Positions 1 through 8,946 of a stretch of DNA of 64,000 nt are shown here, one piece after another. The DNA is from an uncultured Candidatus Saccharibacteria bacterium (lineage in GTDB: Bacteria; Patescibacteriota; Minisyncoccia; UBA6257; WO2-44-18): positions 53,009-117,008 of the forward strand of contig CAZWVU010000001.1 of assembly GCA_964637575.1 (NCBI GenBank), in the 5' to 3' direction. Under the pieces are notes generated by a model. That model saw only the letters and a list, made by a program, of their open reading frames with translations, did no database searches and was not told the origin of the DNA. Every line of letters begins with the position of its first letter. The stretch's first letter is position 1. A program made the position numbers and the translations under genes.

Positions 1-297
1 ATTGGGCCGTTTGTAAAAATGCCGGACCGAGGCGAGATAATCAAATTCGTTTACCAAAGAGATACGGAGGAATTTGAAACGATCCCACAGCTTTGGATGC
101 TCCAGCGGCTTTTTTATGTAGGTCACGCCGGGCGACTGAAAATAACCGCCTGCCTTCGCGGCGGCCTCATCCAGCATCGACGTCAGCACCACCACCCGAT
201 AACGCGACGCCAGGTATTCAATATAGTGCGTGCGCAGAAGATCGGAGGTGAAGATGTAGTGGGGGATGCACAGAAAAACAGTTTTATGTGCGGCCAT
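1..297 (-). CDS. Partial CDS (N-terminus in window, continues off the left edge): fourth member of the unassigned GT-B-like paralog family
   Basis: Reverse translation from ATG at 297 gives MAAHKTVFLCIPHYIFTSDLLRTHYIEYLASRYRVVVLTS..., collinear with the N-termini of the 21940-23253 (MKTVFLFLSKEIYALDLLRGDYAKYLSDRYRVVAFV) and 7591-8946 proteins. Not in the ORF track because there is no in-window stop. Confidence 0.5.
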   Translation of the reverse strand, partial: MAAHKTVFLCIPHYIFTSDLLRTHYIEYLASRYRVVVLTSMLDEAAAKAGGYFQSPGVTYIKKPLEHPKLWDRFKFLRISLVNEFDYLASVRHFYKRPN

Positions 298-508
298 ACT
301 TTTGGAGAATTTTTTTAAGGTCCCCCACATTCTTCACTTCCGCCATGTCATTAATATCAAAACGCGTTTTATATTGTTTTTCGAGCTCCTGTATCAGGGC
401 TAGGCCGTTAAACGAATCCCAGCTCGGCGTATTTTCCGGGCTGGTCGCGTCATTGATGGCAGACGGATCGACATTAAAAACTTTTCCTAATATTTGTTCG
501 AGGGTCAT
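284..508 (-). CDS. Acyl carrier protein (phosphopantetheine attachment Ser in WDSFNGLALIQELE)
   Basis: 74 aa, acidic, DSF/DSL-type motif followed by amphipathic helix typical of ACP/PCP. Confidence 0.7.
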   Translation of the reverse strand: MTLEQILGKVFNVDPSAINDATSPENTPSWDSFNGLALIQELEKQYKTRFDINDMAEVKNVGDLKKILQKYGRT

Positions 509-512
509 AGGG

Positions 513-2234
513 TTATTTAGTGGGATTCATTTCCACATCCATCGTGGAAACGTCGCCTGTTTCCATATTCATTTCTTTAGCCCGCAGCACTCTCCGCATA
601 ATCTTGCCGCTTCTGGTCTTGGGGAGTTTTGCAACAAAATCGATTTCGCGCGGCACTTCATGCACCGAAAGATGCTGCTGCACGTATTTCATAATATCGT
701 GCTTCAATGAATCGGCGGCGAGAACGCCCGGCTTCAGAATGATGAATGCTTTAATAATGTTTCCGTAGATATCGTGCGGTTTTCCGATTACACCAGCTTC
801 CGCGACTGCCGGATGGGAAACTAGGGCGCTTTCAATTTCAAACGGACTGATCCGTTCGCCGGCACTTTTGATCATGTCGTCTTCTCTCCCCTGAAACCAG
901 AAATAACCATCCTTATCCTGATAGGCCATATCCCCGGAAATGTACCATTCTTTTTCAAAATAGGACTCGAATTTTTTCTGATTATTCCAGACTGTTTTCA
1001 TAAGCCCCGGCCACGGGATCTTCACGGCCAGACGCCCGATCTGACCCTGAGGCAACTCCTTCGCTTCGTGATCGATGATCGCGGCGGTAATTCCCGGCAA
1101 TGATCTTCCCATCGATCCCTTTTTAATCGGAAGACACCGGTAATTATTGATGAGCTGATGGCCGTTTTCGGTCATATACCAGGAGTCGTGGATGGGGATT
1201 TCCAGATGCTCCATCGTCCAATCGATAAGACTGGGATTGAGCGGCTCTCCGGCGCTGACTATGTGACGCAAATGTTTTAGATTCTCGCGGCCGATAGGAG
1301 CATTATAATAACGCAGAAGCCGGAAGGCGGTAGGCGTGCTGTACCAGACGCTGATATTCATCTTAGCCATAAACTTCACCCATTCAACGGGATGGAAGGC
1401 TCCTTCGTAAAGATGGGCAGCGACACCGAGCAGTAATGGTGCAAAAAAATTATAGACCATGCCAGTGACCCATCCGGGATCGCCCGAGTTCCAATATGCG
1501 TCGTCCGGATGGAGATCGAGGACGTATTGCGCGGTAACGAAGTGCCCGATCATTGCCCGTTGTGCCAGCAGAATTCCTTTTGGCTTGGCGGTCGAGCCGG
1601 AAGTGTAGTGAATGATAAAAGGAGTTTCCAGATCGCCGAATTTGATCACCGAAGCATCGGCCGGACCCTTCAAAAGTTCCTGAACGGGTAAATTGCGTAA
1701 GGACGGGCTGCTCAACTCTGCTGTTCCGTCCGTGACAACATTATGCAAGGTAGGAATATTTTTGAAATCGAGATTTTTCAGCAGCCTCGTATTTACGTAA
1801 ATCCATTCGGCGCCGCAGTCGCCAAGCCGGTCGGTAATGGCATCAGCGCCGAAGGCTTCGAACAAAGGCACGACGACAGCGCCGCACTTGATCGCAGCAA
1901 GCAACACCACCGCATAATCAACGGACTTGGAGGCATAGATACCGAAACGGTCACCCGGCTTGAGTCCCCTGGCCTGCAAAGCTCCGGCCATTATATTGGT
2001 ACGCTCGGCAAGCGTTCGGAACGTGATCCGCTCGACCGCGCCGTCAGCTTTTTGGGCGATCACCGCAGGACGATCTCCCCGTCCCTGGGAAACCTGATAG
2101 TCCGTTATTTCGTAGGCGTAGTTAACTTTGCCGGAAGTATGAAAAGAAAAATTTTTGTGCCATTTTTCCCAGGAAAAATTGCGGCATTCTTTTTCATAAT
2201 TGGTAAAATTCGGCTCCGGCTGCCTGATAGTCAT
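513..2234 (-). CDS. AMP-forming acyl-CoA synthetase (acetyl-CoA synthetase-like short-chain acid ligase)
   Basis: 573 aa; AMP-binding motifs YTSGSTAKPKG, YMTENG, ISGDMAYQDKDGYFWFQGREDDMIKSAGERI. Confidence 0.75.
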   Translation of the reverse strand: MTIRQPEPNFTNYEKECRNFSWEKWHKNFSFHTSGKVNYAYEITDYQVSQGRGDRPAVIAQKADGAVERITFRTLAERTNIMAGALQARGLKPGDRFGIYASKSVDYAVVLLAAIKCGAVVVPLFEAFGADAITDRLGDCGAEWIYVNTRLLKNLDFKNIPTLHNVVTDGTAELSSPSLRNLPVQELLKGPADASVIKFGDLETPFIIHYTSGSTAKPKGILLAQRAMIGHFVTAQYVLDLHPDDAYWNSGDPGWVTGMVYNFFAPLLLGVAAHLYEGAFHPVEWVKFMAKMNISVWYSTPTAFRLLRYYNAPIGRENLKHLRHIVSAGEPLNPSLIDWTMEHLEIPIHDSWYMTENGHQLINNYRCLPIKKGSMGRSLPGITAAIIDHEAKELPQGQIGRLAVKIPWPGLMKTVWNNQKKFESYFEKEWYISGDMAYQDKDGYFWFQGREDDMIKSAGERISPFEIESALVSHPAVAEAGVIGKPHDIYGNIIKAFIILKPGVLAADSLKHDIMKYVQQHLSVHEVPREIDFVAKLPKTRSGKIMRRVLRAKEMNMETGDVSTMDVEMNPTK

Positions 2235-3351: not shown

Positions 3352-4356
3352 TTAGTGAGCGTCTCCTTCGCGGAAACCTTCCGACTGCTTGATCCGCTCC
3401 GCGGCTTCGGGAGAATAGGTCTTCTCCAGCTCCTGATAGTAGGGAGCGTTGCTGAGCTTGTGGTGGCTCTGGGTGGGATGGCCGTCCTTCTGGCGCTCCA
3501 GTTCCCACTGCCCGTGCTCGGCAACCCGCACCAGCGCCTGCATACCGTCCCACATCGCATGGGTAGCCGCGTGGTAGGCGAACAAAGTGATGAAGATGTA
3601 GCGGTAGCCCATCTGCGCCAGCTCTTTGAACGTCATCGGATTTTCCTGCTTGTGCCACTGGAACGAAGAAGAATAATTGAAAGCGAGCGGCAGATCCGGA
3701 TGCGTGCCGCGCACCGCGCCGGCAAACTCTTCGGCTTTCTGCCGGTCGGGAGTGCCGAATTCGCACCAGATGAGATCGGCGCCCGCGTCGGCATACGCAA
3801 TGCCGCGCTCCTTCGCCTTTTCCATACTGCCGCCGACCGCCCCAAGGGAATCGGTTCTCGCGATGACGATGAAATTCCTGTCATTCTCATCGCGGACATC
3901 CAGCGCGGCGCGCAGTTTTCCCAGCGACTCCGCCAGCGGCAGGACTCTCCGGCCCGCCATATGGCCGCAGCGTTTCGGACCCTTCTGATCCTCGATGTGC
4001 ACGCCGGCCACGCCGGTCTTCATGTACTCTTCCATCGTACGCTGCATATGGATGGCGTCGCCGTAACCGTCATCCGCGTCGGCGATCACCGGCGCCGCAT
4101 TCATGTTGTGCGCCTTGGCCGCCAGCTTCAGGGCATCCACCACCCGGTGGGCGGTGTAGACCATTTCAAAACGCTGGATGATGCCGATGTCGGTCACGCC
4201 CCACTGGGCGCTCGCGGTGGAATACCCGCTCAGGTATACCGCCTGATGACCGACCCGCTGGGCGATCTGTGCCCCGACCGCGTCGTAGACTCCCGGCGCG
4301 AACACATAGGGATCGCGCGCCAACTTTTCGCGGAACAGCCTGCTTGCCTGCTTCAT
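3352..4356 (-). CDS. Isocitrate lyase / PEP mutase superfamily C-C lyase (not a PEP mutase)
   Basis: 334 aa; YLSGY, PVIADADDGYG, GVAGVHIEDQKGPKRCGHMAG, IIARTD, YADAGADLI motifs of PF13714-type enzymes. EDQ...KRCGH rather than the PEP-mutase EDKx5NS signature. Confidence 0.65.
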   Translation of the reverse strand: MKQASRLFREKLARDPYVFAPGVYDAVGAQIAQRVGHQAVYLSGYSTASAQWGVTDIGIIQRFEMVYTAHRVVDALKLAAKAHNMNAAPVIADADDGYGDAIHMQRTMEEYMKTGVAGVHIEDQKGPKRCGHMAGRRVLPLAESLGKLRAALDVRDENDRNFIVIARTDSLGAVGGSMEKAKERGIAYADAGADLIWCEFGTPDRQKAEEFAGAVRGTHPDLPLAFNYSSSFQWHKQENPMTFKELAQMGYRYIFITLFAYHAATHAMWDGMQALVRVAEHGQWELERQKDGHPTQSHHKLSNAPYYQELEKTYSPEAAERIKQSEGFREGDAH

Positions 4357-4423
4357 GTGCGTTTCTCCTCAACACGTGAAAAGTTCTGACGGTAATGTAC
4401 CACAAAAAATCAGCCCCGGCAAC

Positions 4424-5473
4424 TCAAAATGGCCGGTCCTGATCGCCGCCGGCCTTCATCGTGTACCAGTCTTTGAGCGGCGCCGGCAGCGAACTTTTCA
4501 CCGCGAAATTCAAATGGGTGCGCTTGAAACTCACCGGGTTGAACAGTATCGGTATTTCCCGATAGGCCGGGTCGTCGCCGTGTACAAAACCCGCGGCGCG
4601 GAGGCCGGCATTGTGGAAATCGCCGCTGGAAAAATAATCGATAAAATCAATGTTCTGCCCGCGGCAATATTCCACCAGCGCGCCGAGCATATACGCCTCG
4701 GCGTCCTTTTCCGCGATGAAATCAATGATCCGCGCGGCGCGGACACCGGTCGGCTGTTCTTTTTTAACATCCTCAAAACGAAGCACGGCGAATGCCTTCA
4801 CGGCATTTCCCTGCTTCGCCACAAACATCGGATACTTCACCAGCGGATTATTCGCAAAACGCCAATTGAGATAGTCAGCGCTGCGATTCACGGTAATCGG
4901 ATAGCGGCCCCGGACTGATGTCCAAAAAACATCCATTTCCTTCCCGAAATGGTGCACCGGTTCAAACGTATAATTCCCCCGAACTGGCGCTGAAGCGGCG
5001 GACGCGGGAAGGTCGTAGAGATTGTTTTTCGGATTAATCACGTACAAAAAACGCGAAAGGTTTTCGCCCTCCCAGCCGGCTTTCATGAAAAGGGGCCAGG
5101 CGGTGTCATTAATGGTGTGATCGATGGAAAGTTCGTTGAGCTTCGCCGCCCGGTCCAAAAGAAGATAGCCATAGCCGAGTGCGCGGAGATTTTTTTTCAC
5201 GATCAGGTTGCACAGCTGGGTGGCCATCACATCCTTCCCGTAATAATTAAAGGGAGTCATGAACAATCCGAACGTCCCAAGCAGATCGCCCCGCTCCGAC
5301 CAGAGACCGAGCGTTGAATATTCTTCCTTATTCCCGTTCGTAAAGCCATCGAACTGCCAGTCGTAATAGGTTTTGTCGGCAAAGATGTGCTCCGGCTTGT
5401 ATTCGGCGGCGTTGAAAACGCGCAATTGTTCCCACTCGGACTTTTTAACCGGTCTTATTTCCATCCCACACAT
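4424..5473 (-). CDS. Unassigned 349-aa protein, candidate acyl/aminoacyl transferase (GNAT/FemAB-like fold suspected)
   Basis: No unambiguous motif. Sits between the carrier-protein gene and the ICL-family gene in the same transcription direction. Confidence 0.25.
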   Translation of the reverse strand: MCGMEIRPVKKSEWEQLRVFNAAEYKPEHIFADKTYYDWQFDGFTNGNKEEYSTLGLWSERGDLLGTFGLFMTPFNYYGKDVMATQLCNLIVKKNLRALGYGYLLLDRAAKLNELSIDHTINDTAWPLFMKAGWEGENLSRFLYVINPKNNLYDLPASAASAPVRGNYTFEPVHHFGKEMDVFWTSVRGRYPITVNRSADYLNWRFANNPLVKYPMFVAKQGNAVKAFAVLRFEDVKKEQPTGVRAARIIDFIAEKDAEAYMLGALVEYCRGQNIDFIDYFSSGDFHNAGLRAAGFVHGDDPAYREIPILFNPVSFKRTHLNFAVKSSLPAPLKDWYTMKAGGDQDRPF

Positions 5474-5528
5474 AACAAAGAGTGCGCTCCGCGCAATCTT
5501 TGCGATACATCATATTTCGACTGTTTTA

Positions 5529-5780
5529 TCATTGGCTCTTTGTTATGTGTGGGATCCATGATTCAACAATATTCGCAATGGTTTCCAGGGAATTAAAATT
5601 TTCCGGCGTGAGCGCTTCCATGCGCGGCACAATCCCGAGACTGCTCTCGATAAATCCGATCAGCTTGATCATGGTAAAGGAATCCAGAACGCCCCTCTCA
5701 ATCAGATTGACGGAAGAGTCCTCGATCTTCTGTTGGGTTTCTTTTTCCAGAAACGCTTTAATGTTTTCTTGTATATTCAT
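5529..5780 (-). CDS. Small phosphopantetheine carrier protein (DltC/PCP-like)
   Basis: 83 aa; GVLDSFTMIKLIGFIESSLGIV with DSF Ser attachment motif. Immediately downstream of an adenylation enzyme. Confidence 0.6.
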   Translation of the reverse strand: MNIQENIKAFLEKETQQKIEDSSVNLIERGVLDSFTMIKLIGFIESSLGIVPRMEALTPENFNSLETIANIVESWIPHITKSQ

Positions 5781-7251
5781 CTTTTAATTTCGGCCGGTCT
5801 ACCTTTCCCGTGCTGGTGCGCGGCAGAATGTCCCGGATCTCGATGATGTGGGGAATCATATAATGCGGCAGGAGCTTTGCCAAATCGGTCTTGATTGTTT
5901 CCGGCGTCATGCCTTTTTCTTTCAGACTGACAAACGCGGCGATTTCAACGCCGCCCGTTTCCGGCGCCTCCACCGCGATTACCCCCGCTTCTTTTATAGA
6001 GGAAAGCGAATAGAGCGCGGCCTCGATATCGCCAAGCTCGATGCGGTTTCCCATCACCTTCACCTGAAAATCTTTCCGGCCGATGAATTCGTAATTGCCG
6101 TCGGGAAGCCGGCGGACCAGATCGCCGGTCTTGTACACCATACCCGCCTTGCCCGGACGCGGATCCGGCACGAACGCTTCCGCGGTTTTTTCCGGATTAT
6201 TCCAGTAGCCCTTGCCAACTCCGGCACCGGCGACATACAGTTCTCCGTCAACGTCGAACACCTCCGCGCCACGCTGGGCTTTTCCGATCGGCACCAGCCT
6301 GGAAAGATCAGCGGGCGGCGCCGGAACGCGGTAGAACGTGCACTGGACGGTCGTCTCGGTCGGTCCATACATATTTATAAATTCTTTTTCCGGATAGGTC
6401 TTCATCCACTCCGCCAGAAACTTTGCCGGGAATCCTTCACCGTTGAAAAATATTTTCTTCACGCTCGCCATCCGTTCCGGCTTCACCAACCCGGCGTTGG
6501 AAAGATATACCATTACCGACGGAACGGAGTCCCAGATGGTAAGCCGGTGGTCTTCGATGAATTTCATGAGCTGGCCGGGAAAAAGCGAAAGCGATTCAGG
6601 CACGAGGTAGAGTGTCGCGGCGGATTTGAACGCGCAGTAGAGATCAAAGGTGGAAAGATCGAAATGGAGCGGCGGGTGCTGGGACATCCGGTCTTCATGG
6701 GTGATGTTGAATTCGTCCACCGCCCATTCGGTCGCGTTAATAACGTTCGCGTGCGTAATCATCACTCCCTTCGGCGTTCCGGTGGAGCCGGAGGTATAAA
6801 GAATGTAGGCAAGATCACCGGAAGAATTTTTGTAATCGAGCGGGGCGGAAGAAAATTCCCGGACAAATTCCCGGTCGTCATCCAGATTTAAAATTGTCCC
6901 GGCAGCGGCGACGGTAGGAAGCGTTTTATTATTGCAGATCACGATTGCCGGCCTGGCGTCGTCGATGATCTGCTTCGCCCGCGCCGCGGGCGCCTGCGGA
7001 TTGAGCGGCACATAGACCGCGTCGGCTTTCAGGATGCCGGCGAGGGCAATCAGCGAGTCGATCGATTTAAAAAGACAGAAGGCCACCCGGTCGCCGCGTG
7101 TTACGCCCAGTTTCTGCAATGCCCGCGCCATCTGATTGCTCCTTTCGTCAAAATCCTGGTAGGAAATAAGTTCGCCACCGAAAACCGCCGCCGGTTTCTC
7201 CGGAAACTTTTTCGCCGATTCGGAAATATAATCCTGAAGCAGGTTGATCAT
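5758..7251 (-). CDS. Stand-alone adenylation enzyme (amino/hydroxy-acid--carrier protein ligase, DltA/NRPS A-domain-like)
   Basis: 497 aa; core motifs YTSGSTGTPKGV (A3), FDLSTFD (A4), NMYGPTETT (A5), YKTGDL (A7), GRKDFQVKVMGNRIELGDIE (A8), PK at the C-terminus (A10). Confidence 0.75.
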   Translation of the reverse strand: MINLLQDYISESAKKFPEKPAAVFGGELISYQDFDERSNQMARALQKLGVTRGDRVAFCLFKSIDSLIALAGILKADAVYVPLNPQAPAARAKQIIDDARPAIVICNNKTLPTVAAAGTILNLDDDREFVREFSSAPLDYKNSSGDLAYILYTSGSTGTPKGVMITHANVINATEWAVDEFNITHEDRMSQHPPLHFDLSTFDLYCAFKSAATLYLVPESLSLFPGQLMKFIEDHRLTIWDSVPSVMVYLSNAGLVKPERMASVKKIFFNGEGFPAKFLAEWMKTYPEKEFINMYGPTETTVQCTFYRVPAPPADLSRLVPIGKAQRGAEVFDVDGELYVAGAGVGKGYWNNPEKTAEAFVPDPRPGKAGMVYKTGDLVRRLPDGNYEFIGRKDFQVKVMGNRIELGDIEAALYSLSSIKEAGVIAVEAPETGGVEIAAFVSLKEKGMTPETIKTDLAKLLPHYMIPHIIEIRDILPRTSTGKVDRPKLKDEYTRKH

Positions 7252-7643
7252 TGTGTTACCGCGATCGCGACCGCGTAATCATGGGTATGCGAAAGGGAAA
7301 CCAGCACCCGGGGCGCCCGGCGGATATTGCGGATTCTGGCGACCGGACGGCCGTCCTTGCGGTTTGAAATTTCAAAATTGCCGGCCTGATACACACTTGC
7401 ATTGAGCGCTTTGGCAATCGCCTCTTTGGCGGCAAAGCGGGCGGCAAAATGCGGATAGGGGTCTTTTTTGGAAAGACAATAGGCGATTTCTTTGGCGGTG
7501 AAAATGCGGCCGTAAAAAGACCGGTTCCGCTGGAATGGCAGCTTCCGGAAACGGCCGACGCTTTCTATATCTACTCCGATATTCTTCATGTTAGGCGATG
7601 CTGTCCCGCAGAAATCCGGCAATACGCTGACCGGCGTGGCCAT
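7248..7643 (-). CDS. acpS: Holo-ACP synthase (4'-phosphopantetheinyl transferase, AcpS type)
   Basis: 131 aa; MKNIGVDIESVGRF...FAAKEAIAKAL typical AcpS. 4-nt overlap with the adenylation gene. Confidence 0.7.
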   Translation of the reverse strand: MATPVSVLPDFCGTASPNMKNIGVDIESVGRFRKLPFQRNRSFYGRIFTAKEIAYCLSKKDPYPHFAARFAAKEAIAKALNASVYQAGNFEISNRKDGRPVARIRNIRRAPRVLVSLSHTHDYAVAIAVTQ

Positions 7644-8946
7644 CCAGTTCGCCGCACTGCTCGCGGACGAGGCGCGCCCGGCCTTCCTCGTCCAGCTCCG
7701 GGTGTTCCAGATAGCGCCGGATCTGGCTGATCAATTCTTCCTCCGACCGGGGATAGGCAATCCCGCCGCTGTTCACCGCATTCCGGTAATGCGTCATCTG
7801 GTAAAAATGCGTCGGTGATTTCGAGAGAAGCTGGCGCTCCTTTACTTCAAAATCAATGTTGATCACCGGCTTGTGGAATACCGCCGCGTCGATACTCATA
7901 CTGGAAGCGTAGCAGATAAAGAGATCGGCGTTGGCGAGCGTGTCGGTCAGTCCCCGGATATCGTCAAAACTCATGTCCCAATCCACGCCGCGGGTGGAGG
8001 AAAAGCGGATGCCGGGACGGTCGTATACAAGATAGGAGCGTTTCCGCAATTCCGATTCGTCCAGAAAATCATTGGGTTGAAAGCGCACGAGAAGCTGGGC
8101 GTTCGGAATCCGCCCCGCGGAAATCGCCGCGTGCAGAAGATCAACGATATCCCAGTCGGAATTGCTGTAGGTTTTTCCCATCGGCGCGTAGACGATTATC
8201 TTTTTTGCCGGATCAAGTCCTTTTTTCGCGCAAAAATCCTTCCGGCTCATCGGCGGGTAATTCACATGCCAGTCATATTGAGGAATGCCGGCCACGAAAA
8301 TATCCCCGGCCTTCATGTCGGCATGCCGGATCGCCTCTTCCTTCACCAGATCATTGAAGACGATCAGCTTGCCGGGGAGAAGCCGCATGATGCCGCGGGC
8401 GGTAAGCTTGTCCCACGAATTGATGAATCCGACCGCGGGCACGCCGCGCCGCTTTGCTTCGCGCAAAAGATCGGTTTCAGTGTCATCGAAAAGATGCGCC
8501 AGAAACACCGCGTCCGGGGAATATTTATCGAAAAATTCACCGAACAGGCCGCTTCCCCCGAAGTGGAAATCAAGCCGGCGGACGATCTGGCGGACGGACC
8601 GGCGGGCCAGCATGCGGTTCAGAAGCCAGTTCGCAGCGTATCCGAGGTAATTTCCGGTTTCCTCCAGAAGCATGCGGCGGCGGAGATCAACTGTGGCGGT
8701 CCGCAGTAAAAGGAATTTCAGATTGCTGAAAAAAGTTTCGCTCCGGCCCGGCGCGCGTTCCGGCGCTACTTCATACACGACATTCCGGCCGGAAAATTCC
8801 TTCCGGTAATATTCGGCCCGCTCCGGCGTCCGTACGAACAGCACCAGGCGCAGCTCCGGATCGGCGGCCAGCGTTTTGTAAATGTCGGTGCGGAGAATGT
8901 TCTTGGCCTCCACTCCCTGAAACAGGGTAATAAAAATAGTACGCAT
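7591..8946 (-). CDS. Unassigned GT-B-like paralog family member (451 aa, SWDKLT motif)
   Basis: Collinear similarity to the 33077-34444 protein: TIFITLFQGVEAKNILRTD / TVFITAFTNFVVRNLLDTD; GVPAVGFINSWDKLTARG / GIPVIGMVRSWDNLTTRG; VAGIPQYD / VVGIPHYD. Confidence 0.5.
   Translation of the reverse strand: MRTIFITLFQGVEAKNILRTDIYKTLAADPELRLVLFVRTPERAEYYRKEFSGRNVVYEVAPERAPGRSETFFSNLKFLLLRTATVDLRRRMLLEETGNYLGYAANWLLNRMLARRSVRQIVRRLDFHFGGSGLFGEFFDKYSPDAVFLAHLFDDTETDLLREAKRRGVPAVGFINSWDKLTARGIMRLLPGKLIVFNDLVKEEAIRHADMKAGDIFVAGIPQYDWHVNYPPMSRKDFCAKKGLDPAKKIIVYAPMGKTYSNSDWDIVDLLHAAISAGRIPNAQLLVRFQPNDFLDESELRKRSYLVYDRPGIRFSSTRGVDWDMSFDDIRGLTDTLANADLFICYASSMSIDAAVFHKPVINIDFEVKERQLLSKSPTHFYQMTHYRNAVNSGGIAYPRSEEELISQIRRYLEHPELDEEGRARLVREQCGELDGHAGQRIAGFLRDSIA

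What the first reader, a model, noticed from the sequence alone, without database searches (positions are those of the whole stretch)
5463..5555. Perfect 20-bp inverted repeat spanning the carrier-protein stop and the start codon of the 349-aa gene
ATCCCACACATAACAAAGAG at 5463-5482 and its exact reverse complement CTCTTTGTTATGTGTGGGAT at 5536-5555 flank a 53-nt spacer. On the minus-strand mRNA, the arm at 5536-5555 encodes the carrier protein C-terminus (IPHITKS). The arm at 5463-5482 contains the 5' UTR and the AUG UGU GGG (MCG) start of the 349-aa gene. The predicted 20-bp stem would occlude that start codon. A repeat this long and perfect is unlikely by chance in a 55-nt intergenic region. 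It could mediate translational control or coupling, mRNA processing, or mark a recombination scar.
Basis: seen in the sequence. Interest (0 to 1): 0.5.

Follow-up and report, generated by a model that had tools for sequence, protein, structure and literature searches.

The report
Mobile palindromic element splitting two genes
The perfect 20-bp inverted repeat is the pair of ends of a roughly 90-base mobile DNA element that has jumped into the overlap between two coupled genes, and it belongs to an apparently undescribed family in CPR (Patescibacteria) bacteria whose copies all sit exactly on start codons.

Summary
The repeat is real: arms 5463-5482 and 5536-5555, 20/20 complementary, 53-nt spacer. 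It is the only such repeat in the window and is not expected by chance.

It is not a locally evolved regulatory hairpin. Five homologous loci lack it. In four of them the carrier gene's stop overlaps the next gene's start (e.g. ATGGAAATAA).

Deleting 95 nt from the window restores that junction exactly. The repeat is therefore an insertion flanked by a 5-bp direct repeat, ATGGA.

The same 18-20-nt arms occur as inverted pairs 113-150 nt long in CPR metagenome-assembled genomes labelled Saccharibacteria and Parcubacteria. I found 17 instances. In all 15 complete copies the 3' arm abuts the ATG of a real but functionally unrelated gene. The 5' arm is usually preceded by the same ATGRA and a -10 box, the layout of leaderless genes. 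A second filled-versus-empty comparison (tyrS) confirms insertion.

The conserved start of the 349-aa gene is M4 (ATG 5464). 'MCG' is encoded by the arm.

My best reading is a MITE-like element. On the mRNA its hairpin would hide the start codon unless carrier translation melts it; that part is inferred.

No transposase partner, Rfam family or paper was found.

The parts
5536..5555 (-). 5' arm on the mRNA (AUCCCACACAUAACAAAGAG). It is the left terminal inverted repeat of the inserted element and encodes I-P-H-I-T-K-S, the new C-terminal tail of the carrier protein.
   Evidence: Identical 18-20-mers occur in CPR loci.
5463..5482 (-). 3' arm on the mRNA (CUCUUUGUUAUGUGUGGGAU). It is the right terminal inverted repeat. 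It contains the spurious in-frame ATG at 5473 (M-C-G) and the A and U of the conserved start ATG at 5464.
5483..5535 (-). 53-nt interior of the element. It is a shortened version of the 77-114-nt interiors seen elsewhere. It keeps GTCGAAAT (family motif GTCGTAAAT) and the internal CAAAGA, and it carries the carrier gene's new stop TGA (5531-5529).
   Evidence: covariance-model match 74.6 bits on the minus strand against 55 bits on the plus strand
5555..5559 (-). Left copy of the 5-bp direct repeat ATGGA (target-site duplication). Its TGG is the conserved Trp codon of the carrier.
5460..5464 (-). Right copy of the 5-bp direct repeat ATGGA. It regenerates the start codon and the first bases of the Glu codon of the downstream gene (MEIR...).
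5460..5554 (-). The 95 nt absent from homologous junctions: a 90-nt element plus one copy of ATGGA. Equivalent partitions are a 93-nt element with a GG duplication, or a 91-nt element with a TGGA duplication. Deleting it restores GAATCATGGAAATAAGACC.
   Evidence: The 12-mer ATGGAAATAAGA is identical to the junction in L042, and the architecture matches L002.
5476..5502 (-). Local alternative hairpin. The internal CAAAGA (5502-5497) pairs with TCTTTG of the 3' arm (5481-5476) and encloses the small GCGC-GGA-GCGC hairpin (5495-5483). It competes with the long stem and leaves both AUGs unpaired.
5529..5780 (-). Gene for the 83-aa peptidyl/D-alanyl-type carrier protein. Its last 8 codons and its stop are supplied by the element; relatives end in ...W-K/R* or ...W-R/K-S-A/G-K*.
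4424..5464 (-). Gene for the 346-aa GNAT-fold protein, read from its conserved start (ATG 5464). The 349-aa call from ATG 5473 is an extension encoded by the element.

Best explanation
The two arms are the terminal inverted repeats of a small, non-coding, non-autonomous mobile element (MITE-like). The element is about 90-93 nt long.

It inserted into the 10-nt overlap (ATGGAAATAA) that once joined the carrier-protein gene to the downstream GNAT-fold gene, and it duplicated ATGGA on insertion. The host genome belongs to the CPR (Patescibacteria, Parcubacteria-like).

The duplication keeps both genes intact. The left copy keeps the carrier's Trp codon, after which the carrier reads 8 codons into the element and stops. 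The right copy regenerates the downstream start codon.

The element belongs to a family found in CPR genomes. Every complete copy I found abuts the ATG of a gene, and most copies lie at ATGRA start codons of leaderless genes.

Shown here: the insertion, the duplication, family membership and the start-codon association.

Inferred: on the operon mRNA the arms form a 20-bp stem (about -40 kcal/mol) that buries the start codon. Ribosomes translating the carrier pass through the 5' arm and terminate 4-6 nt beyond it. That frees the 3' arm, which then folds only into a short local hairpin and leaves the AUG exposed. Translation of the downstream gene would thus stay coupled to that of the carrier.

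The enzyme that moves the element is unknown. The confidence given (0.6) is for this whole reading, as against the rivals below. That the repeat is an inserted copy of a dispersed mobile element I hold at about 0.9.
For: 1. Five homologous loci share the gene order TagF-like / PPTase / adenylase / carrier / GNAT-fold, and none has the repeat. The carrier stop overlaps the next start by 10 nt (L002, L042) or 19 nt (L003, L039), or lies 19 nt upstream of it (L040).

2. Deleting 95 nt from the window gives ...GAATCATGGAAATAAGACC. This reads carrier ...IVESWK* overlapping MEIRPV, and its 12-mer is identical to the L042 junction.

3. The 18-mer arm occurs in three CPR genomes and in four CPR-like metagenome contigs, mostly as inverted pairs spanning 113-150 nt. 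That makes 17 instances, including one relic. A covariance model scores them at 75-133 bits in the sense orientation, about half that in antisense.

4. In 15 of 15 complete copies the 3' arm abuts the ATG of a 126-470-aa ORF. The functions are unrelated: TyrRS, LigA, L25, DoxX-like, glycosyltransferases and others.

5. The flanking direct repeat covaries: ATGGA/ATGGA in the window, L009 and L030; ATGAA/ATGAA in the others. The base after the left copy is always T, while the base after the right copy varies. The duplication is therefore exactly 5 bp.

6. A second filled-versus-empty pair exists. tyrS is filled in L017 and L029, but empty in the orthologues L045, L046 and L047, where a -10 box sits 7-8 nt upstream of the ATG.

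7. A TAnnnT box lies 6-8 nt upstream of the left ATG position in 15 of 17 copies, against 6-9% background.

8. The window genome itself rarely uses Shine-Dalgarno sequences (11 of 54 ORFs) and often has -10 boxes 5-8 nt upstream of the ATG. Its ClpB is closest to Parcubacteria/Paceibacterota sequences.

9. Folding gives the long stem as the minimum-free-energy structure. With the 5' arm held single-stranded, the 3' local hairpin forms and both AUGs are unpaired.
Against: - No transposase gene or full-length element with these ends was found, so the mobilising mechanism is unidentified.
- Only one copy is present in about 74 kb of this genome.
- Three copies (L035, L011a, L007) lack the left ATGRA. 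They carry TTCAT, TTCGT or ACGTGT instead, which a simple target duplication does not explain without later mutation.
- The target ATGRA is so constant that the boundary between the duplication and the inverted repeat cannot be fixed. Duplications of 2, 4 or 5 bp all fit.
- The exclusive association with start codons, and a bias towards G-U-compatible changes on the sense strand, hint at a host-level RNA function beyond a selfish element.
- Copies were ascertained through one exact arm, which inflates the apparent conservation of the arms.
- Nothing here measures expression, so the coupling mechanism is inference only.
Confidence: 0.6

Rival explanations
1. Mobile riboregulator. The family is a functional 5' leader or RNA switch that the host retains. 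The long stem and the two local hairpins (CCCACA/UGUGGG and ACAAAGAG/CUCUUUGU) are mutually exclusive conformers that gate access to the start codon. The window copy would then be a bona fide translational control element that happens to have arrived by insertion.
For: - All 15 complete copies abut a start codon and share one orientation relative to the gene.
- The local 3' hairpin is 97% paired across 15 copies. It shows 14 one-sided changes, all G-U-compatible on the sense strand, plus one compensatory change.
- The long stem has 6 G-U changes against 3 breaks.
- The L011b subfamily has three fully compensated arm changes, and its internal copy co-varies.
- At the orthologous filled tyrS sites (L017/L029), the element is about 85% identical while the coding sequence is about 72% identical.
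Against: - The downstream genes share no function, so this is not a regulon.
- No Rfam family matches.
- The G-U bias is partly compositional: the 5' arm and the internal copy are A/C-rich, so any transition there is G-U-compatible. The statistics are marginal, p about 0.03-0.06 by my own estimate.
- The compensated arms are equally expected for the inverted repeats of a transposon subfamily.
- The window copy lacks the 5' local hairpin motif.
- A perfect 20-bp stem is too stable for a reversible switch unless a helicase or a ribosome opens it.
Confidence: 0.2
2. Single-strand (HUH/Y1-type; IS200/IS605-, PATE- or REPIN-like) element. It would insert 3' of a specific pentanucleotide (ATGRA) without making a duplication. 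The right-hand ATGRA would be the element's own end, and the local hairpins would be the transposase recognition structures.
For: - The 5-nt sequence at the left flank is constant, and there are subterminal hairpins near both ends.
- The substitution pattern is strand-specific.
- The interior base in CG(T/C)TGTGG tends to go with ATGGA versus ATGAA (3/5 against 0/7; my Fisher test gives p about 0.045).
- A -10-like TATTGT lies 6 nt upstream even at the non-promoter site in the window. This is compatible with targeting of melted promoter-like DNA.
Against: - From general knowledge, IS200/IS605 elements lack long terminal inverted repeats, and their two hairpins resemble each other. Here there are perfect 20-bp terminal repeats, and the two local hairpins differ in sequence.
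- REP units carry a GTAG motif and are individually palindromic. These arms are neither.
- The right-hand ATGRA matches what the gene needs (ME/MD versus MK/MN), as a duplication of host sequence predicts.
- No Y1 transposase or RAYT was found, though none could be searched for.
Confidence: 0.12
3. Locus-specific regulatory hairpin evolved in place for translational control or mRNA processing between the carrier gene and the 349-aa gene.
For: The stem is very stable and covers the start region.
Against: It is absent from all five homologous junctions. Identical arms occur at unrelated genes in other genomes. Flanking 5-bp duplications mark it as an insertion.
Confidence: 0.03
4. Local sequence accident: an inverted duplication by template switching, a recombination scar, or an invertible promoter segment (inverton).
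For: The arms are perfect, as expected for a recent event.
Against: - Neither arm exists in the ancestral junction, so neither could have templated the other.
- The same arms and interior motifs occur elsewhere.
- The interior orientation relative to the gene is the same in every copy, and the one other assembly of this locus that I aligned is identical.
- No promoter is predicted inside the 53-nt spacer.
Confidence: 0.02

Closest known systems
Bacterial MITEs in general (non-autonomous derivatives of insertion sequences)
   Same: Small (89-150 nt), non-coding, with perfect or near-perfect terminal inverted repeats and a short flanking direct repeat. There are several copies per genome in some hosts. 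Filled and empty sites can be compared.
   Different: - No cognate transposase or insertion sequence was identified.
- The flanking repeat is always ATGRA, and every complete copy sits on a start codon.
- The arms are identical across CPR lineages labelled Saccharibacteria and Parcubacteria.
- From memory, a 4-5-bp duplication with 'CC' ends resembles IS1380-type elements. That is only a lead and was not tested.
Correia elements (NEMIS/CREE) of Neisseria
   Same: They work alike in several respects (from general knowledge): palindromic elements of about 100-150 bp, co-transcribed with neighbouring genes, whose inverted repeats fold into a long RNA hairpin that can affect mRNA processing (RNase III) and expression.
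   Different: Correia elements have 26-bp repeats of unrelated sequence, a TA target duplication and hundreds of copies, and they are not tied to start codons. No processing data exist for the present family.
Rickettsia palindromic elements (RPE)
   Same: Palindromic mobile elements tolerated inside or at the edge of coding sequence, where they add residues to proteins. Here 8 residues are added to the carrier's C-terminus.
   Different: RPEs insert in frame within ORFs and are translated throughout. This element ends the upstream ORF after 8 codons and regenerates the downstream start codon.
REPINs / REP-RAYT and IS200/IS605-derived palindromic elements
   Same: Two conserved inverted units around a variable spacer form a long hairpin. 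Recognition appears sequence-specific, and there are strand-specific structural constraints.
   Different: The arms lack the GTAG motif and are not themselves palindromic. The position is at start codons rather than between convergent genes. The flanking repeat behaves as duplicated host sequence.
Translational coupling by hairpin melting (for example coat-dependent translation of downstream genes in RNA phage MS2, or the IF3-L35-L20 operon)
   Same: A downstream start sequestered by long-range pairing with sequence inside the upstream ORF is exposed only when ribosomes translate the upstream ORF. This is the predicted behaviour here.
   Different: In those systems the pairing evolved in place. 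Here it was imported ready-made by a mobile element, and it has not been tested.

Membership tests
MITE (non-autonomous DNA transposon) | Short and without coding capacity | tested here: met
   The element is 89-93 nt in the window and 113-150 nt elsewhere. Only short incidental reading frames cross it.
MITE (non-autonomous DNA transposon) | Terminal inverted repeats | tested here: met
   20/20 complementary in the window. In 15 copies the 20 pairs are almost invariant.
MITE (non-autonomous DNA transposon) | Target-site duplication, verified against an empty site | tested here: met
   ATGGA flanks the insert in the window, and the junction rebuilt by deletion equals the homologous junctions. 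The tyrS filled sites (L017, L029) compare with the empty sites L045-L047. The length is 5 bp, although 2 or 4 bp with longer inverted repeats cannot be excluded.
MITE (non-autonomous DNA transposon) | Multiple dispersed copies within one genome | tested here: inconclusive
   At least 6 copies occur in one MAG (ERP119705_co11_391) and 4 in another (SRP178908_co1_164). In the window's own genome there is only 1 copy in about 74 kb. The whole genome was not available.
MITE (non-autonomous DNA transposon) | A cognate autonomous element or transposase with the same ends | not testable with these tools
   None lies in the roughly 270 kb of loci held.
REPIN / REP-RAYT | Each unit is an imperfect palindrome with a conserved GTAG-type 5' motif | tested here: not met
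   The arm CCCACACATAACAAAGAG is not self-complementary and has no GTAG.
IS200/IS605-type palindrome-associated element | No terminal inverted repeats; similar subterminal hairpins at both ends; insertion 3' of a fixed 4-5-nt target without duplication | tested here: inconclusive
   A fixed ATGRA at the left flank and subterminal hairpins are present. However, there are 20-bp terminal inverted repeats, and the two hairpins differ in sequence.
Correia element (Neisseria) | 26-bp repeats of the Correia consensus with a TA duplication | tested here: not met
   The arm sequence and the flanking ATGRA differ. The Correia features used for the comparison come from general knowledge.
Described structured RNA (Rfam 15) | A match to a curated covariance model | tested here: not met
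   No hit overlaps the element in the window (E up to 1 over 4000-8000; gathering threshold over 64 kb) or in eight loci that carry it.
Intrinsic terminator | GC-rich stem followed by a U-tract | tested here: not met
   The long stem is followed by GGAAAUAAGACC. Only a chance-level 5-bp GCGC hairpin inside the spacer was flagged.
Invertible promoter (inverton) | Both orientations of the segment observed, with a promoter inside | tested here: not met
   Every copy has a single interior orientation relative to the gene. The second assembly of this locus that I aligned is identical. No promoter is predicted in the spacer.
Integron attC site | Lies at the 3' end of cassettes in arrays; imperfect stem with extrahelical bases | tested here: not met
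   Single dispersed copies lie at the 5' ends of genes, the stem is perfect, and there are no arrays.

The most novel reading that the evidence does not exclude
The family may be a start-codon-homing mobile leader specific to CPR bacteria. It would integrate at position +1 of leaderless genes by recognising ATGRA, perhaps in the melted DNA of an open promoter complex. It would convert each such gene into one with a 5' hairpin leader plus a tiny leaderless upstream ORF (MNPTHNKE...). Its mutually exclusive long and local hairpins would then act as a portable translational gate or RNA-processing site. This would be a transposable riboregulator rather than a merely tolerated parasite.
Probability: 0.2. 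Interest if true: 0.85.

Novelty: new variant of a known kind. Interest (0 to 1): 0.62.

Why it matters
For this locus, the finding corrects the annotation. The 349-aa gene starts at ATG 5464, 'MCG' is encoded by the element, and the last 8 residues of the carrier protein are also element-encoded. It also explains why two normally overlapping, coupled genes are separated here.

More broadly, it reveals an apparently undescribed palindromic mobile-element family shared by distant CPR/Patescibacteria lineages. Every complete copy found sits exactly on a start codon, usually that of a leaderless gene, and duplicates ATGRA so that the gene survives.

CPR genomes are tiny and tightly packed, and little is known about their mobile DNA or about how they start translation. 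A start-codon-specific element gives a natural probe of leaderless initiation, translational coupling and mobile-element tolerance in these organisms.

The element also produces a recurrent 'MCGM...' mis-annotation in public protein sets, which could be used to find more copies.

Tried and rejected
- Rfam scans of the window and of eight element-bearing loci found nothing at the element.
- The search for related loci with the 349-aa protein in genome contigs found no relative. Homologous loci had to be reached through exact-protein look-ups instead.
- The covariance model R1 found no further copies in the window, in 10 kb more of the same genome, or in the homologous and control loci. A relaxed arm search also found none.
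- The viral-contig scan gave one hit inside an unrelated ORF, which I judged to be chance.
- The 18-mer hits in Cupriavidus, Solirubrobacterales, Acidobacteriaceae and Psychrosphaera, and in a low-GC conserved family (L021, L027, L032-L034, L036), lack a partner arm and the family's interior motifs. I treated them as unrelated.
- A look-up of the FtsK-like protein at the right edge of the window found no record.
- Five literature searches (MITE or repeats with Saccharibacteria, Patescibacteria, Parcubacteria, leaderless) returned nothing relevant.
- I considered and rejected a terminator, an inverton, an attC site, a REP unit and a local template-switch duplication; reasons are in the membership tests and rival explanations.
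- I considered an internal promoter that would recreate a leaderless transcript at the right-hand ATG. The sequence upstream of it (TTGTTATGTGTGGG) has no TAnnnT at the right spacing, by my own reading.
- I do not claim in-situ purifying selection on the arms, because the copies were ascertained through an exact arm.
Full report
**1.

- The repeat finder reports arms at 5463-5482 and 5536-5555. They are 20 nt long, 100% complementary, with 53 nt between them.
- Allowing 3 mismatches, the arm occurs nowhere else in the 64-kb window, and none is expected in shuffles.
- It is the only long perfect spaced inverted repeat in the window.
- All genes here lie on the minus strand. The upstream arm (5555-5536) encodes I-P-H-I-T-K-S of an 83-aa ORF that stops at 5531-5529. 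The downstream arm (5482-5463) contains ATG 5473 (M-C-G) and the A and T of ATG 5464.
- As RNA the region folds into the 20-bp stem at about -40 kcal/mol, with z between -3.4 and -5.1.

**2. Gene context**

The minus-strand operon reads as follows:
- nucleotidyltransferase
- TagF-like glycerophosphotransferase
- 4'-phosphopantetheinyl transferase
- AMP-binding adenylase
- the 83-aa protein
- the 349-aa protein (weak GNAT hit)
- a PEP-mutase/isocitrate-lyase family protein

A profile of the 83-aa protein and its homologues matches peptidyl-, aminoacyl- and D-alanyl-carrier proteins in the PDB (E 6e-10 to 1e-4). 'Carrier protein' is therefore justified.

The window's ClpB is most similar (73-91%) to proteins from MAGs. 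The named ones are labelled Patescibacteria, Parcubacteria, Paceibacterota, Harrisonbacteria and Liptonbacteria. The host is thus a CPR bacterium.

**3. The true start of the downstream gene**

All 24 aligned homologues (42-60% identity) begin at MEIR, which is M4 of the called ORF. The conserved start is therefore ATG 5464-5462.

'MCG' is simply AUG-UGU-GGG of the arm. The same spurious extension appears on an unrelated TyrRS in NCBI (P0178, 'MCGMNDS...') and on the ORF next to another copy (L035, 'MCGMKKV...').

**4. The repeat is an insertion**

Exact-protein look-ups gave five homologous loci with the same gene order. None has the repeat.
- In L002 and L042 the carrier stop overlaps the next start by 10 nt (ACATGGAGATAA; AAATGGAAATAA).
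- In L003 and L039 the overlap is 19 nt.
- In L040 there is a 19-nt gap.

In the window the minus strand reads GAATC[ATGGA]T-CCCACAC...GTGTGGG-[ATGGA]AATAAGACC. Removing 95 nt gives GAATCATGGAAATAAGACC. This encodes carrier ...IVESWK* overlapping MEIRPV, and the 12-mer ATGGAAATAAGA is identical to L042.

So a 90-nt element plus a 5-bp duplication (ATGGA) was inserted into the overlap. Because the target always begins with AT, partitions of 93 nt + GG or 91 nt + TGGA cannot be excluded.

**5. It belongs to a dispersed family**

Scans for the 18-mer CCCACACATAACAAAGAG found it in two MAGs labelled Candidatus Saccharibacteria (at least 6 and 4 copies), in a Parcubacteria MAG, and in groundwater and other metagenome contigs. 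It usually occurs as an inverted pair spanning 113-150 nt.

With the window copy this gives 17 instances: 15 complete copies, one copy split across two loci, and one relic with a single arm upstream of ruvC (L023). Other 18-mer hits lack a partner arm and the interior motifs, and I treated them as unrelated.

The aligned copies share these features:
- the arms
- an interior CG(C/T)TGTGGG next to the 5' arm
- a GTCGTAAAT motif
- an AT-rich middle
- AACAAAGAGCGAA next to the 3' arm

The window copy is a shortened version that keeps GTCGAAAT and CAAAGA.

A covariance model scores all copies at 75-133 bits in the orientation of the downstream gene and about half that in antisense. It finds no second copy in the window or in 10 kb more of the same genome. 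No Rfam family matches, and five literature searches found nothing relevant.

**6. Where the copies sit**

In 15 of 15 complete copies the 3' arm directly abuts the ATG of a real ORF of 126-470 aa. The functions are unrelated: TyrRS (two copies), NAD-dependent DNA ligase, ribosomal protein L25, a DoxX-like membrane protein, an FAD-binding protein, glycosyltransferases, a TagF-like protein and secreted proteins (identified by my reading of the N-terminal sequences).

In 12 of the 15 the 5' arm is preceded by the same pentamer that follows the 3' arm.
- It is ATGGA in the window, L009 and L030, and ATGAA in the other nine.
- The split copy (L006/L018) also carries ATGGA on both sides.
- The base after the left copy is always T (from the element). 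The base after the right copy varies. The repeat is therefore exactly 5 bp.

A TAnnnT hexamer lies 6-8 nt upstream of the left ATG position in 15 of 17 copies, against 6-9% at random or at other ATGRA sites. That is the layout of leaderless genes.

A second filled-versus-empty comparison confirms this. tyrS carries the element in L017 and L029. Orthologues with 72-74% identical TyrRS (L045, L046, L047) have terminator, -10 box, 7-8 nt, then ATG, with no element.

The window genome itself seldom uses Shine-Dalgarno sequences (11 of 54 ORFs) and often has a -10 box 5-8 nt before the ATG.

**7. What the arms are, and what they probably do here**

The anatomy is that of a MITE-like element: short, non-coding, with perfect terminal inverted repeats and a flanking duplication verified at two loci. 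It is multi-copy in some genomes and present in distant lineages. The transposase is unknown.

The consequences at this locus are inferred. The insertion preserved both genes:
- The left ATGGA keeps the carrier's conserved Trp codon. The ORF then runs 8 codons into the element (IPHITKSQ) and stops. Relatives have 1-4 variable residues after this Trp.
- The right ATGGA regenerates the start codon.

On the mRNA the long stem would bury AUG 5473 and the A and U of AUG 5464. The 5' arm lies wholly inside the carrier ORF, and the stop is 4-6 nt beyond it. Each translating ribosome must therefore unwind the stem.

With the 5' arm held single-stranded, or with only local pairing allowed, the predicted structure is a short hairpin between the internal CAAAGA and TCTTTG of the 3' arm. 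Both AUGs are then unpaired. This would replace coupling by overlap with coupling by hairpin melting. It has not been tested.

**8. Hints of more than a selfish element**

- Across 15 copies the local 3' hairpin is 97% paired. It has 14 one-sided changes, all G-U-compatible on the sense strand, plus one compensatory change.
- The long stem shows 6 G-U changes against 3 breaks. One subfamily (L011b) has three fully compensated arm changes, and its internal copy co-varies.
- Three copies (L035, L011a, L007) lack the left ATG. In two of them the palindrome is extended instead (TTCAT or TTCGT ... ATGAA).

Caveats apply:
- The 5' arm and the internal copy are A/C-rich, so any transition there is G-U-compatible.
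- My rough tests give only p about 0.03-0.06.
- Compensated arms are also expected for a transposon subfamily.
- Copies were ascertained by one exact arm.

I therefore keep 'mobile riboregulator' and 'single-strand (HUH-type) element with an ATGRA target' as live rivals, but not as the best explanation.

**9. Verdict**

The stem and the M4 start are right.
- The feature is a copy of an apparently undescribed, start-codon-associated palindromic mobile element of CPR bacteria. It is a new variant of a known kind (MITE-like).

Noticed in passing
window 5462-5473 (minus strand); also P0178 (L017) and L035 389-778: Gene callers extend ORFs downstream of the element by 'MCG', because the 3' arm contains an in-frame AUG-UGU-GGG directly before the real AUG. 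'MCGM...' N-termini in CPR protein sets may therefore flag further copies.
   Followed up: partly
whole window (e.g. upstream of the genes starting at 2234, 8946, 21935, 41899, 54936, 56212 and 60674 on the minus strand): Only about 11 of 54 long ORFs have a Shine-Dalgarno-like motif. Many have a TAnnnT box 5-8 nt upstream of the ATG, and operon-internal genes overlap. The genome seems to rely on leaderless initiation and translational coupling.
   Followed up: partly
window 5566-5571 (minus strand, TATTGT): A -10-like hexamer lies 6 nt upstream of the left ATGGA, even though this site is inside the carrier coding sequence and not at a promoter. This is either chance (6-9% background) or a hint that the element prefers promoter-like sequence followed by ATGRA.
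   Followed up: no
L023 about 1900-1930 (minus orientation): A relic copy lies upstream of a RuvC-like gene: ATGAAT + left arm + 8 nt + ATGAAAATC. The interior and right arm are deleted.
   Followed up: no
L035 765-900; L011 3218-3348; L007 2479-2607: Three copies lack the left ATGRA. Two have TTCAT or TTCGT instead, which extends the palindrome to about 25 bp around the start codon. A -10-like box is still present at the usual distance from the element.
   Followed up: partly
L009 4531-4691; L029 1975-2134; L006/L018: A 150-nt subfamily carries an extra inner hairpin (TCCCTCACATAA-loop-TTATGTAAGGGA) built from the outer halves of the arms, like a nested mini-palindrome. It accounts for the 30-nt indel between the orthologous tyrS copies L017 and L029.
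   Followed up: no
L011 5891-6031: A variant subfamily has arms CCCTCACATAACAAGGAT / ATCCTTGTTATGTGAGGG, with three compensated changes. Its internal repeat is changed in step (CAAGGA).
   Followed up: partly
alignment A3, column 27 (interior CG[T/C]TGTGG): T at this interior position goes with ATGGA flanks (3 of 5), while C goes only with ATGAA flanks (0 of 7 are ATGGA). My Fisher test gives p about 0.045. It could be shared descent or a target-recognition base.
   Followed up: no
window 284-2234 (minus strand) and L049 11727-14864: A second adenylase (573 aa) plus small carrier-like ORF (74 aa) lies next to the first set. Just beyond the window it is followed by another TagF-like gene, a small GNAT gene and a 351-aa ORF. 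This suggests a duplicated or modular carrier-dependent decoration system for a surface polymer.
   Followed up: no
L017 1200-1253 compared with L029: Between the two orthologous tyrS loci, the terminator tail and promoter upstream of the element are 49/50 identical, while the flanking coding sequences are only about 50-72% identical. This is unexplained; it could reflect strong constraint or recent exchange of the promoter-plus-element block.
   Followed up: no
L021, L027, L032-L034, L036: An unrelated, low-GC (33-37%) conserved sequence family contains the same 18-mer in a different context (..CTCTTTCCCGCAAC[T/C]T-18mer-TCA..). It has no partner arm and is probably a coincidence.
   Followed up: no
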